DNA of 64,000 bases from a virus: positions 32,001-96,000 of the IMG/VR virus record IMGVR_UViG_3300035670_000068, one strand, 5' to 3'. A model generated the notes under the pieces. It saw nothing but the letters and a program-made list of their open reading frames with translations, was not told where the DNA came from and did not search any database. The translations under genes and the position numbers were made by a program. This document shows positions 3,735-12,303 of this stretch, piece by piece (position 1 is the first letter of the stretch; the number at the start of each line of letters is the position of its first letter).

Positions 3735-3840
3735 CGGTTTCGAGCCTTTGTCCGCAACAAAGGCTCCATCTGAAAACCTACTGGCTGCTCAAAAGGGCTT
3801 GCCATGACCCGGACTCCACAGTCAGTAGGTTTTCAGATGT

Positions 3841-3917
3841 TGGTGCGTAGCTCAGTTGGTAGTAGCAGGTGACTGTTAATCACCAGGTCGAAGGTTCGAG
3901 CCCTTCCGCACCAGCCA
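3841..3917 (+). tRNA. tRNA-Asn(GTT)
   Basis: Acceptor TGGTGCG/CGCACCA, G discriminator, encoded CCA, anticodon loop CTGTTAA, GTTCGA T-loop. Confidence 0.95.
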
Positions 3918-3929
3918 GTTTGTTTTTGC

Positions 3930-4006
3930 CGGCGCATAGCTCAACTGGACAGAGCATCGGGCTTCTATCCCGTTGGTTGTAGGTTCGAGTCCTACTGCGT
4001 CGGCCA
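3930..4006 (+). tRNA. tRNA-Arg(TCT)
   Basis: Acceptor CGGCGCA/TGCGTCG, loop CTTCTAT, GTTCGAG, CCA end. Confidence 0.93.
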
Positions 4007-4027
4007 CTTGAGATAGAGAGGTTGAAG

Positions 4028-4210
4028 ATGGAAGTGTTGTCTGGCGGTATCGCCACTCTGATGAACGCGCACGACGCCTATAGCGTCAACGCCCCGATTC
4101 ACGAAGCGGAAGGCAATCATGAGCAGGCTCAGTTCTGCCGCGATATGGCTGCCGACCTGCAGCTTTCCATCGTTGCTCTCAAGATGGTTCAGAGTTCCGA
4201 GCCGGTATAG
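4028..4210 (+). CDS. Small hypothetical protein inside the tRNA cluster
   Basis: GAGG RBS, 60 codons, stop lies within the first bases of tRNA-Thr. Confidence 0.5.
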   Translation: MEVLSGGIATLMNAHDAYSVNAPIHEAEGNHEQAQFCRDMAADLQLSIVALKMVQSSEPV

Positions 4211-4276
4211 CTCAGTTGGTAGAGCAGCTGCTTTGTAAGCAGAGGGTCGTGGGTTCGAAACCTACTGCCGGCACCA
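4201..4276 (+). tRNA. tRNA-Thr(TGT)
   Basis: Acceptor GCCGGTA/TGCCGGC, loop TTTGTAA, CCA end. Confidence 0.95.
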
Positions 4277-4283
4277 GAGCAAT

Positions 4284-4359
4284 GCGTAGGTAGCTCAAAT
4301 GGGAGAGCGACGGATTCCAAATCCGTTGGTTGGTGGTTCGACTCCATCCCTGCGCGCCA
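4284..4359 (+). tRNA. tRNA-Trp(CCA)
   Basis: Acceptor GCGTAGG/CCTGCGC, anticodon arm ACGGA-TTCCAAA-TCCGT, CCA end. Confidence 0.93.
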
Positions 4360-4360
4360 G

Positions 4361-4750
4361 ACACCCCTGACCGGGTGGCCCTGAAAGACCTGGATGACTA
4401 CAGGTATCGCTCAGGCTGATGCAGTCGCCCCGAGGGGCTTTCAGCAAGAGAGTGGGCAGTCGAGCGTAAAGCCGCTCAATGCGGAAGGTGAGCTTCCTTA
4501 TCCGAAAGGACGACCGTGGCGACGGGCAACGCAACCCTCCTGGCCGGGTAAAAGACCAGGAAGAGCAACTGCGGTACGTTCGTGGCTGGTGTCATGAGTC
4601 TGCTAGGGTAAGGTGGCTTTCGTGCCGAGCCCAACGTGCAGAGCCGGCCTGCCACCACGAATGAAGGGCGTTTTTTCTCCTTTTACGCCCGAGCAAAGGC
4701 CGGCTACCTCCTGACCTGTCGCCCCGGCAGGAACGAAACTCGCGGGGCTT
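4361..4750 (+). ncRNA. Candidate large structured non-coding RNA (unclassified)
   Basis: No credible ORF; dense hairpins, long-range helices and a crossing pair; sits between tRNA-Trp and a terminator. Confidence 0.6.
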
Positions 4751-4753
4751 CCC

Positions 4754-4800
4754 AGCCCTGGTCTGACACCTCACCCAATCGTCAGACCAGGGCTTTTTTC
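4754..4800 (+). terminator. Intrinsic terminator of the tRNA/ncRNA operon
   Basis: AGCCCTGGTCTGAC...GTCAGACCAGGGCT followed by a T tract. Confidence 0.85.
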
Positions 4801-4968
4801 GTCTGTCAGAAAGCAGCAGCTCGAACAGCGTGGCAAGCGCTCAGATTTGCGCTGTGCTGCGCGATCTCTCTTGACGTGCATCGACGTAGCGCTAGAAAAG
4901 AAAAACGCTCAGAGCGCGAACCCTGAGCGTTTCTGTGAAGCTGGAGATCGATCGTTAGGCGAGCGCTT

Positions 4969-5442
4969 TCATACGAACCCCCAGCTCTCGATATCGAAGG
5001 TCTTGATGCGACCACCAGAGAAGCAGTCCAGCTCGCAGGCCACCTTGACCGCTTCGGTAGCAGACTTGCCCAGAGACATTGCTGCCATCGCGAAGTCTGT
5101 ACCGCTACCGATGGCCACCGGGCTCTCAGTCGGCATGGGGACCAGACGATGCTCCAGGACGAACGCTTCGCCAGTCTCCAGGATCAGCAGGCCGCTCATT
5201 TCACCCGGCTCGAACTCGGGGATCATTTCGCAGTCGTGCAGATCGTTGCCTTCCAGGTGCTTCTTGAGCAGCAGGATCGACTCGTAGCTGCCGGCGCCAG
5301 CGAGAACAGCTTTAACTTCGACACCGTTGGCGCGAGTGACCAGCGGGAAAATCTTCTGGGTGGACTTGGCTGAGATCAGGTTGCCGAGCGTTGCGCGACC
5401 ATCAGCGGCCAGGAACTGTCCGTCGAATGCGACTGTGGTCAT
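4969..5442 (-). CDS. HslV/proteasome-beta-like Ntn-hydrolase
   Basis: Real start MTTVAFDG..LAADGRAT (N-terminal Thr nucleophile), AIGSGTDFA, LDCFSGG. Confidence 0.8.
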   Translation of the reverse strand: MTTVAFDGQFLAADGRATLGNLISAKSTQKIFPLVTRANGVEVKAVLAGAGSYESILLLKKHLEGNDLHDCEMIPEFEPGEMSGLLILETGEAFVLEHRLVPMPTESPVAIGSGTDFAMAAMSLGKSATEAVKVACELDCFSGGRIKTFDIESWGFV

Positions 5443-5684
5443 CAGAAGCCCTCCGGGCAGGCGACAGCGCGAGTGATCGCCATGAAGCCCTTCTGCAGAT
5501 CGGTCGTGCCGATGCTCAGCCAGCGCATATCGATCTGGTGTCCGCCAGTTTGGTAGTGAGTCGCTTCCAGGTAGGTGATCAGGTCTTTCACCTCCTGGGC
5601 CTTGGCCTTGATCTTGTTGATGCAATCGATCTCGTCCTCGGTCAGATCGCGATAGCCCTTGATCAGACGATGCTGATTATCCAT
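5442..5684 (-). CDS. acb2: Anti-CBASS cyclic-nucleotide sponge Acb2
   Basis: MDNQHRLIKGYRDLTEDEI...RWLSIGTTDLQKGFMAITRAVACPEGF closely matches recalled Pseudomonas phage Acb2 (MDNQHKKIKGYRDLS...[27 protein letters not shown]). Confidence 0.9.
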   Translation of the reverse strand: MDNQHRLIKGYRDLTEDEIDCINKIKAKAQEVKDLITYLEATHYQTGGHQIDMRWLSIGTTDLQKGFMAITRAVACPEGF

Positions 5685-11798: not shown

Positions 11799-12303
11799 TT
11801 TTGCTTCTCTCGTCAGTGCAGCCTCTAGCGTGCTGCTCGACTTGTATTGTCTCAACTGACAAGCGGCATGAGCTGGCTCCCGGAGAGTGGTAACTGGCTA
11901 GCCGTGGTGCAGCCGTGGGTGAGCCTTATCCTGGGTAGACCTTGGTTCTGCCGTGGCGATGATCCGGGATTTACCGAGTGCCTACTGGTAAGCCGTGGTG
12001 CAGCCTATTCAGGTAGTGCCGTGGCTCACCAGGACTGCCAAGGTGTGCCTTGGAGCTGCCACGGTTGCCGTGGGTATTTCTACGGCAGCGCCTAACCGTG
12101 GCTAATTGGAAACCCAGCCTTATATATAAAAGGCCCTATGGAAAAATTCCCGCGCATGTACATGCCGTGGCGTGTATAGGCAAAAAAATAGCCCGATTAG
12201 AGGGGTTAGCTCTAACCGGGCTCAACAGTCAGTGGTTCGGGGAGACTGACTGAAACGAGAGGGAGGGTATTACAGCGCGCCCCCTGCCTGGCGCTGAAAC
12301 CGT

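What the first reader, a model, noticed from the sequence alone, without database searches (positions are those of the whole stretch)
4361..4750. Candidate ~390-nt pseudoknotted non-coding RNA at the end of the tRNA operon
Seen: it starts right after the tRNA-Trp CCA and ends at a strong terminator, with no credible ORF. Hairpins include ACCTG/CAGGT, GCCCC/GGGGC inside GCTGA/TCAGC, GAGCG/CGCTC, GGAAG/CTTCC, TCC-GAAA-GGA, CCTGG/CCAGG and GGGCGT/ACGCCC. A long-range helix CGTTCGTGG(C)TGGT (4577-4590) pairs with GCCACCACGAATG (4651-4663). It is crossed by a perfect 9-bp pair, AGCCGGCCT (4642-4650) with AGGCCGGCT (4697-4705), which implies a pseudoknot or a conformational switch. The 5' CCCC can close with the 3' GGGG. 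Established: large ornate phage RNAs such as GOLLD and ROOL occur next to tRNA genes. I cannot assign this one to a family.
Basis: partly seen in the sequence, partly recalled or inferred. Interest (0 to 1): 0.8.

Follow-up and report, generated by a model that had tools for sequence, protein, structure and literature searches.

The report
Conserved phage RNA motif after tRNAs
The gene-free stretch behind this Pseudomonas-type phage's tRNA genes starts with a roughly 95-base folded RNA that recurs in at least six other phage lineages and matches no described RNA family, but I found no support for the proposed single 390-base pseudoknotted RNA.

Summary
The window is part of a 110-kb Nickievirus-like phage. 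Bases 4361-4800 are non-coding, follow tRNA-Trp and end in a 14-bp terminator.

Only the first ~95 nt (4386-4479) show selection. They form a three-hairpin module:
- hairpin 1, invariant: ACCUG / RAUGNNUA / CAGGU, then AUC;
- hairpin 2, variable;
- the junction ARUGG;
- hairpin 3, with loop UANAGC.

The module recurs in seven independent lineages (six phage or viral contigs and one bacterial MAG). All 12 pairs of hairpins 2 and 3 show compensatory changes. Three lineages carry it inside or beside tRNA arrays. In two, a sub-threshold abiF-like hairpin (the abiF motif is the RNA antitoxin of the AbiF toxin) abuts it. Rfam 15 has no match for the module.

The 3' 270 nt is alignable with nothing. 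It folds no better than shuffles (z -0.6). A perfect 9-bp helix like the 'pseudoknot' pair appears in 36% of shuffles.

Best reading: a small stable RNA released from the tRNA transcript, probably a protein-binding counter-defence decoy. The function is inferred, not shown.

Earlier notes of this scan report lone abiF RNAs and strings of small RNA modules in other phages' tRNA arrays. A sequence look-up found this module only in a second note on this same stretch.

The parts
3841..4359 (+). tRNA array: Asn(GTT) 3841-3917, Arg(TCT) 3930-4006, a 62-aa ORF 4022-4210, Thr(TGT) 4201-4276, Trp(CCA) 4284-4359
   Evidence: ARAGORN; Rfam tRNA 61-66 bits; ORF list; weak phrog_3376 match for the 62-aa ORF
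4361..4385 (+). 5' spacer between tRNA-Trp and the module. It holds GCCC (4378-4381), which can pair with GGGC (4454-4457) as a short closing helix P0 (tentative).
   Evidence: P0 appears in the local minimum-energy fold here and in L180's copy. It is no better than shuffled flanks.
4386..4479 (+). Conserved three-hairpin RNA module. Hairpin 1 is 4388-4392/4401-4405 with loop GAUGACUA, followed by AUC 4406-4408. Hairpin 2 is 4410-4450, with nested GCUGA/UCAGC and GCCC/GGGC. GAGUGGGCA is at 4450-4458. Hairpin 3 is GAGCG/CGCUC 4462-4466/4473-4477 with loop UAAAGC 4467-4472.
   Evidence: Covariance model R1, built from two other phage lineages, hits here at 41.8 bits, E 7e-7.
4480..4753 (+). Lineage-specific 3' extension: small hairpins GGAAG/CUUCC and UCC-GAAA-GGA, then a predicted multi-branch domain closed by CCG-GGCGACGGG (4514-4526) with CCUGUCGCC-CGG (4715-4727).
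   Evidence: Helices listed. z = -0.57. Not alignable with the only long-form relative, L008. The 9-bp helix is of chance quality.
4754..4800 (+). Intrinsic terminator: 14-bp stem AGCCCUGGUCUGAC/GUCAGACCAGGGCU, 13-nt loop, then a U6 run
   Evidence: 0 of 200 shuffles reach a 14-bp stem. The consensus scan missed it because its loop exceeds 8 nt.
4901..5499 (-). Convergent unit: HslV-like peptidase gene 4972-5499 with its own terminator 4934-4901
   Evidence: phrog_1040, E 1e-38; terminator scan; homologs
5445..5684 (-). Acb2/Tad1-type anti-defence sponge gene just upstream of the HslV-like gene. This is context, not part of the RNA.
   Evidence: Pfam PF24729, 55.3 bits against a cut-off of 27

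Best explanation
Bases 4361-4800 are the non-coding tail of the phage's tRNA operon. The first ~95 nt (4386-4479) are a copy of a conserved, apparently undescribed phage RNA module with three parts. (1) An invariant 5-bp hairpin with loop RAUGNNUA, followed by AUC. (2) A hairpin of free sequence and length, followed by ARUGG. (3) A 5-bp hairpin with loop UANAGC. Shown: the module is under selection for its fold on this strand, and it is repeatedly embedded in transcripts that tRNA-processing enzymes cut. Inferred: it is released as a small stable RNA by the cuts that mature the neighbouring tRNAs, and it acts in trans by binding a conserved protein through the invariant hairpin 1. Most likely it is a decoy that disarms a host RNA-binding defence factor. 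Lone abiF antitoxin RNAs sit in other phages' tRNA arrays and may play that role. The remaining ~270 nt up to the terminator is lineage-specific sequence. It may hold further small hairpin modules, but I found no evidence that it forms one large conserved fold or a pseudoknot.
For: Non-coding: no family match for any ORF. Across homologs the spacing between conserved blocks is 44, 15, 37, 20, 21, 21 and 36 nt, so the frame is not kept, and L043 has an in-frame stop six codons after the loop AUG.

Homologs: seven lineages found by pattern scans and confirmed with model R1 at 31.6-98.7 bits. Three sequences that share the full 20-nt hairpin-1 string by chance score 21 bits or less.

Covariation: 100% of 123 cells are paired. 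All 7 pairs of hairpin 2 and all 5 pairs of hairpin 3 change on both sides. 0 of 500 shuffles reach the observed values, and slid controls pair at only 22-44%.

Strand: G-U pairs are present, and all seven copies are co-oriented with their flanking genes.

tRNA link: the window's copy lies after tRNA-Trp. L180's lies mid-array, 6 nt before a tRNA. L178's lies between tRNAs.

Link to a known RNA antitoxin: in L180 and L028 an abiF-like hairpin (33.8 and 18.9 bits, both below the gathering score of 37) abuts hairpin 1. In L180 its outer stem is predicted to enclose hairpins 1 and 2. In L028 this is by eye only, because the fold there did not predict it.

abiF hairpins without an annotated Abi_2 gene in the 3-kb stretches I read lie in the tRNA arrays of Thibault, S-SZBM1 and Mimi. 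abiF RNA neutralises the AbiF toxin by direct binding (bioRxiv 10.1101/2025.04.15.648962; PMC12737573).

Context: an Acb2/Tad1 sponge gene lies 650 nt away.
Against: No expression or processing data could be obtained. The window's own copy has no abiF motif. None of 30 gammaproteobacterial Abi_2 loci carries the module, although at least 11 of the 20 scanned against Rfam carry abiF motifs, so it is not a usual AbiF antitoxin. No host locus carrying the module beside a toxin or defence gene was found, so there is nothing known for it to mimic. In L043 and L170 it sits directly before a ribosome-binding site, which fits a cis role as well. The family is small (seven lineages), and the alignment used for pair counts was fitted to the structure. 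The long form (module plus 230-270 nt plus terminator) is kept in both related phages (window and L008), so the 3' part may matter after all.
Confidence: 0.45

Rival explanations
1. The module is a cis-acting RNA-processing or stability element, possibly a new self-cleaving ribozyme. It would cut or protect polycistronic transcripts at tRNA-RNA or gene-gene junctions.
For: About 35 invariant nucleotides in a ~70-nt core, including a stem that never covaries, resemble catalytic cores. The module always lies between co-transcribed units with no terminator of its own: before a tRNA in L180 and L178, before polA in L043. Established knowledge: small ribozymes such as hammerhead, twister, pistol and hatchet cluster in phage intergenic regions.
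Against: No match to any Rfam ribozyme, even at E 10 on short stretches. No candidate cleavage site or conserved pseudoknot could be identified. tRNA-flanked copies need no extra cutter, because RNase P and 3' trimming already act there.
Confidence: 0.2
2. One reading: the whole 4361-4750 is one large ornate RNA with a long-range closing helix and a pseudoknot or switch, a functional analogue of GOLLD or ROOL.
For: The related phage L008 keeps a long form of about 330 nt with the same order of module, multi-branch domain and terminator. Its 3' domain folds with z = -2.7 and the whole with z = -4.6. Both long forms can pair GGCCCU in the 5' flank with a downstream GGGGCU. Phage genomes rarely keep 270 nt of junk.
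Against: The window's 3' part has z = -0.57, and the whole without the terminator has z = -1.26. A 9-bp helix occurs in 36% of shuffles. The 3' parts of the window and L008 do not align. The module is autonomous in five other lineages. No GOLLD or ROOL match was found.
Confidence: 0.12
3. The module is a riboswitch-like cis-regulator of the downstream gene.
For: In L043 it ends ~30 nt before the polA start codon and in L170 ~15 nt before a start codon, next to the ribosome-binding site. The conserved junction and loop nucleotides look like an aptamer.
Against: In the window and in L008 it is followed by a terminator and a convergent gene. In L180 and L178 it is followed by tRNAs. There is no common downstream gene and no conserved expression platform.
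Confidence: 0.08
4. It is a DNA-level site (a protein-binding palindrome, an origin or a recombination site) or a small coding gene that starts at the loop AUG.
For: Hairpin 1 is a perfect 5-bp dyad that is invariant in sequence. There is one copy per genome. Every copy has an ORF starting at the loop AUG that begins M-x-T-G-I.
Against: Hairpins 2 and 3 keep pairing while changing sequence completely, with G-U pairs that would be A-C on the other strand. Orientation always follows the flanking transcription. The peptides run from 6 to 67 aa with no conservation beyond the invariant nucleotides. Synonymous codons are never used despite very different GC contents.
Confidence: 0.04

Closest known systems
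abiF RNA motif (Rfam RF03085; AbiFr, RCd22), the RNA antitoxin of the AbiF/Abi_2 HEPN toxin
   Same: Both are small protein-sized hairpin RNAs with sequence-invariant parts. Lone copies occur inside phage tRNA arrays. In two lineages (L180, L028) an abiF-like hairpin and this module are physically fused.
   Different: The window's RNA has no abiF motif. The module's sequence and three-hairpin layout differ from the 37-nt abiF hairpin. It was found beside none of 30 Abi_2 genes.
Phage T4 stable RNAs rnaC and rnaD (species 1 and 2 RNAs)
   Same: Both are non-tRNA stable RNAs of unknown function encoded at the 3' end of a phage tRNA operon, directly after the last tRNA.
   Different: There is no sequence or structure match: model R1 gives 9.5 bits in the T4 region, and not at rnaC or rnaD. 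The lengths also differ, 119 and 139 nt against a ~95-nt core within 440 nt.
GOLLD and ROOL large ornate RNAs
   Same: They are phage-associated and often lie next to tRNA genes (PMC5737381).
   Different: No covariance-model match. Here only ~95 nt are conserved. There is no evidence of a large multi-domain conserved fold.
Pseudo-ToxI of phage phiTE, an RNA antitoxin mimic (from my own knowledge: Blower et al., PLoS Genet 2012)
   Same: It is the precedent for a phage carrying an RNA that mimics a host type III antitoxin to escape abortive infection. That is the mechanism proposed here.
   Different: Pseudo-ToxI is a tandem repeat that copies a known host antitoxin. Here there are no repeats and no known host counterpart.

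Membership tests
GOLLD (RF01998), ROOL (RF03087), RNase P RNA, tmRNA and other Rfam 15 families | Covariance-model match at or near the family's gathering score | tested here: not met
   Only the four tRNAs pass the gathering score in 64 kb. At E up to 10 on 4250-4900 nothing relevant appears; the best hits are SNORA77 at 19.5 bits and Pseudomon-1 at 16.9 bits, both on the terminator. ARAGORN finds no tmRNA.
abiF RNA motif (RF03085) | Hairpin with the conserved loop CUCUCAACGAU and the 3' bulge CAAAUC inside an outer stem | tested here: not met
   No match in the window region at E up to 10, nor in the whole 110-kb genome. Relatives L180 (33.8 bits) and L028 (18.9 bits) carry it next to the module, both below the cut-off of 37.
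abiF RNA motif (RF03085) | Lies upstream of an Abi_2/AbiF toxin gene (or is a lone phage copy) | tested here: not met
   No Abi_2-like ORF lies near 4361-4800. The module is absent from 30 Abi_2 loci.
The new three-hairpin module (this report) | Invariant hairpin 1 (ACCUG/RAUGNNUA/CAGGU), then AUC | tested here: met
   Window 4388-4408. Identical in all 8 sequences.
The new three-hairpin module (this report) | Variable hairpin 2, then ARUGG, then a 5-bp hairpin 3 with loop UANAGC | tested here: met
   Window 4410-4477. R1 gives 41.8 bits. 12 of 12 pairs covary across the family.
Type III toxin-antitoxin RNA antitoxin (ToxI-like) | Tandem direct repeats, with an adjacent endoribonuclease toxin gene | tested here: not met
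   No tandem repeats in 4300-4900. No toxin-like neighbour.
Riboswitch or cis-regulatory leader | Aptamer followed by an expression platform and a regulated downstream gene | tested here: not met
   In the window the RNA ends in a terminator facing a convergent gene.
Stable RNA of a phage tRNA operon (T4 rnaC/rnaD type) | Encoded on the tRNA strand directly after the last tRNA, with no ORF | tested here: met
Stable RNA of a phage tRNA operon (T4 rnaC/rnaD type) | A discrete stable transcript is detected | not testable with these tools

The most novel reading that the evidence does not exclude
The three-hairpin module is a new functional RNA class with an intrinsic activity or a specific, widespread protein target. 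One possibility is the antidote-mimic of a still undescribed RNA-controlled defence toxin, which phages fuse with an abiF hairpin to make a two-headed decoy. The other is a new small ribozyme. In either case, phage tRNA arrays would serve generally as launch pads for such RNAs.
Probability: 0.22. Interest if true: 0.85.

Novelty: new variant of a known kind. Interest (0 to 1): 0.6.

Why it matters
Phage tRNA arrays are usually read as codon-usage aids or as spares for tRNAs cut by host defences. This stretch adds a conserved non-tRNA RNA that uses the same transcription and processing route. It recurs in viral contigs ranging from a GC-rich Pseudomonas-type siphophage to an AT-rich contig and a 189-kb jumbo-phage contig, and in two lineages it is fused to a hairpin resembling a known RNA antitoxin. 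If it is a decoy, it points to an unknown host factor that many bacteria share. If it is catalytic or ligand-binding, it is a new RNA class. Either way, about 35 invariant nucleotides in a 70-nt core give a compact target that can be tested directly.

Tried and rejected
- Rfam at gathering and at E up to 10 gave no family for the window RNA.
- blastn of 4361-4800 against phages and plasmids found no match.
- The TerB neighbour as a query in viral contigs found nothing.
- A 31-nt exact pattern from the 3' part found nothing.
- One viral scan was wasted on a mis-specified pattern, one N too many. It returned only coding chance hits.
- The strict type-A pattern in viral contigs and metagenomes returned only the known lineages plus one coding chance hit.
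- A pattern leaving the hairpin-1 stem free found no member with a different stem, only two coding chance hits.
- Of 119 stretches sharing the hairpin-1 stem strings, only the four with the RAUGNNUA loop have the downstream blocks.
- Closing helix P0 is predicted in two members but is no better than shuffled flanks.
- A kissing interaction between loop 1 and loop 3 is possible in L043 and L008 but not in the window (by eye).
- tRNA-like, T-box-like, HDV-like and rRNA-mimic readings were considered by eye and dropped for lack of the defining elements.
- T4 rnaC and rnaD do not match the model.
- The module as part of ordinary AbiF loci: 0 of 30 loci.
- Nickievirus phages (nickie, ZY21, phiK7B1, Nican01, hairong) have a different non-coding stretch at the same site and no module.
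- The genome search cannot draw relatives for a virus record.

Full report
**Setting.** The window is bases 32001-96000 of a 110,316-bp virus record with direct terminal repeats. Its helicase (652-2343) is 65-68% identical to those of the Pseudomonas syringae phages nickie, Nican01, ZY21, phiK7B1 and hairong of genus Nickievirus. The gene order around the finding is:
- helicase;
- DprA-like gene;
- TerB-like gene;
- an 84-aa membrane ORF;
- tRNA-Asn and tRNA-Arg;
- a 62-aa ORF;
- tRNA-Thr and tRNA-Trp;
- the gene-free stretch 4361-4800.

Facing this on the other strand are an HslV-like peptidase gene with its own terminator and an Acb2/Tad1-type sponge gene.

**The observation.** tRNA-Trp ends at 4359. 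The stretch ends in a 14-bp stem (4754-4794) followed by a run of six U. That stem length was never reached in 200 dinucleotide shuffles. No ORF on either strand has a PHROGs or Pfam match.

The thermodynamic case for a large fold is weak:
- The whole 440 nt gives z = -2.9, but without the terminator the 393 nt give z = -1.26.
- The 3' part 4483-4753 gives z = -0.57.
- The other long-range helix has a longest perfect run of 7 bp.

**Homologs.** Neither blastn nor Rfam found anything. Synteny did. A 108-kb viral contig (L008, helicase 73% identical) has, between its TerB-like and HslV-like genes, a 330-nt gene-free stretch ending in a terminator. The two stretches share only their first part: AGACCUG-NAUGNNUA-CAGGUAUC, a hairpin of unrelated sequence, GAGUGGGCA, and a hairpin with loop UAAAGC.

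Pattern scans then found the same arrangement in unrelated DNA:
- **L043 (and its variant L168):** an AT-rich viral contig, between a sliding-clamp gene and a DNA polymerase I gene.
- **L028 (also L070, L073):** a 52-kb phage, in a long gene-free gap.
- **L170:** a gammaproteobacterial MAG, after a RusA-like ORF and 15 nt before a start codon.
- **L178 (also L179):** a 189-kb jumbo phage, between tRNAs.
- **L180:** a 67-kb contig, in the middle of a tRNA array, 6 nt before a tRNA.

Each genome searched has one copy.

**Test of the fold.** I built a covariance model from L180 and L170 alone. It recovers the window's copy at 4386-4479 with 41.8 bits (E 7e-7) and the other lineages at 31.6-56 bits. 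Three sequences that share the entire 20-nt hairpin-1 string by chance, all coding, score 21 bits or less.

On the eight-sequence alignment:
- All 123 cells form standard pairs.
- All seven pairs of hairpin 2 and all five of hairpin 3 change on both sides.
- No shuffle of 500 reaches the observed values.
- Sliding the partners by one to three columns drops pairing to 22-44%.

The alignment was fitted to the model, which favours pairing. The stems are nevertheless entirely different sequences in each lineage, as the raw sequences show.

Hairpin 1 never varies, in stem or in loop consensus. A scan that left its stem free found no member with another stem. Of 119 stretches sharing the stem strings, only the four with the RAUGNNUA loop had the downstream blocks.

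**RNA, not protein or DNA.** The distance between the conserved blocks is 44, 15, 37, 20, 21, 21 and 36 nt, so no reading frame is kept. L043 has a stop six codons after the loop AUG. The invariant nucleotides never use synonymous codons, even though GC content differs widely. G-U pairs occur, and all copies point the same way as the genes or tRNAs around them (and the context calls). That argues for a transcript rather than a DNA site.

**What the rest of the stretch is.** The 3' 270 nt of the window and the 3' 210 nt of L008 do not align. L008's 3' part does fold well (z = -2.7), and both long forms can pair GGCCCU in the 5' flank with a downstream GGGGCU. A function for the long form is therefore not excluded. 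I could not test it:
- Closer relatives exist, as HslV-like proteins at 62-83% identity, one on a 110-kb contig labelled Ectopseudomonas mendocina.

In five other lineages the module stands without any such extension. The Nickievirus phages proper have, at the same site, a decayed tRNA-like gene followed by a different conserved ~250-nt non-coding stretch.

**Lead to function.** In L180 the 26 nt just before hairpin 1 match 25 of 26 positions of the consensus of the Rfam abiF motif (33.8 bits, cut-off 37). L028 has a weaker copy at the same place, at 18.9 bits. In L180 the predicted fold uses the abiF motif's outer stem (CCC with GGG) to enclose the abiF hairpin plus hairpins 1 and 2. For L028 this is my reading of the sequence only.

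The abiF RNA is the antitoxin of the AbiF/Abi_2 HEPN RNase and neutralises it by direct binding (bioRxiv 10.1101/2025.04.15.648962; PMC12737573). Canonical abiF hairpins with a 24-nt identical core lie inside tRNA arrays of cultured phages: Mycobacterium phage Thibault, Synechococcus phage S-SZBM1 and Arthrobacter phage Mimi. In all, 51 phage records matched. No Abi_2 gene is annotated in the 3-kb stretches I read around those three.

This agrees with earlier notes of this scan on other genomes, which report lone abiF RNAs and strings of small RNA modules in phage tRNA arrays. I saw those notes only after reaching the same point. So phage tRNA arrays do carry small RNAs that plausibly act as decoys, and this module is twice fused to an abiF-like hairpin.

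Against a direct AbiF link:
- The window has no abiF motif.
- Of 30 gammaproteobacterial Abi_2 loci, none has the module.
- At least 11 of the 20 loci scanned against Rfam have abiF motifs.

**Verdict.** The stretch is a non-coding tail of the tRNA operon. Its first ~95 nt are a member of a conserved three-hairpin RNA motif that I could not find in Rfam 15 or in the papers I searched. The most likely mechanism, at roughly even odds, has three steps. The module is released by tRNA processing, it is stable, and it binds a conserved protein through the invariant hairpin 1, probably as a counter-defence decoy. All three steps are inferred. T4's rnaC and rnaD are the closest positional analogues but are unrelated in sequence and fold.

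Noticed in passing
L184 1501-1524 (Mycobacterium phage Thibault); L185 1501-1524 (Synechococcus phage S-SZBM1); L186 1501-1523 (Arthrobacter phage Mimi): Canonical abiF antitoxin hairpins with a 24-nt identical core lie inside the tRNA arrays of cultured phages of very different hosts, in unannotated gaps. No Abi_2 gene is annotated in the 3-kb stretches read. 51 phage records matched. They may be decoys against AbiF.
   Followed up: partly
L181 1501-1596 (same place as L180 9227-9322); L182 1501-1598 (same place as L028 1854-1951): An abiF-like hairpin and the three-hairpin module are fused. In L180 the abiF outer stem appears to enclose hairpins 1 and 2. That would make a composite RNA from two separable modules.
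   Followed up: partly
window 5445-5684 (-) and 4972-5499 (-): An 80-aa Acb2/Tad1 hairpin-domain protein (PF24729, 55 bits) lies directly upstream of an HslV-like peptidase gene, convergent with the RNA. An anti-defence sponge is therefore in the immediate neighbourhood.
   Followed up: partly
L004 2865-3345 (-), L005, L006, L003 9551-9870: At the same site, Nickievirus phages carry a tRNA-like gene with a variable, partly decayed anticodon arm. It is followed by a conserved ~250-nt non-coding stretch and a terminator, with no Rfam match. Phage hairong has the tRNA-like gene but lacks the stretch.
   Followed up: partly
window 3766-3838: A long near-perfect hairpin (CAUCUGAAAACCUACUG... pairing with ...CAGUAGGUUUUCAGAUG) lies immediately before tRNA-Asn. 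The nickie group has an analogous ~120-nt hairpin upstream of its tRNA-like gene. It could be a processing signal or another small RNA.
   Followed up: no
L178 (-) about 11800-12130 (also L179): In a 189-kb jumbo-phage contig the module lies between tRNAs. It is followed by a further tRNA and then a sequence that starts like a tmRNA (GGGGACGAAUUGGUUUCGACG).
   Followed up: no
L187-L206 (gammaproteobacterial Abi_2 loci): In at least 11 of 20 Abi_2 loci an abiF motif lies about 120-150 nt upstream of the toxin gene. L200 has a second copy downstream on the other strand, and L192 has two copies upstream.
   Followed up: no
window 4022-4210 (+): A 62-aa ORF sits inside the tRNA array (weak phrog_3376 match). 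L008 and phage nickie each carry an ORF at the corresponding place (111 aa and 58 aa); I did not test whether they are related to it.
   Followed up: no
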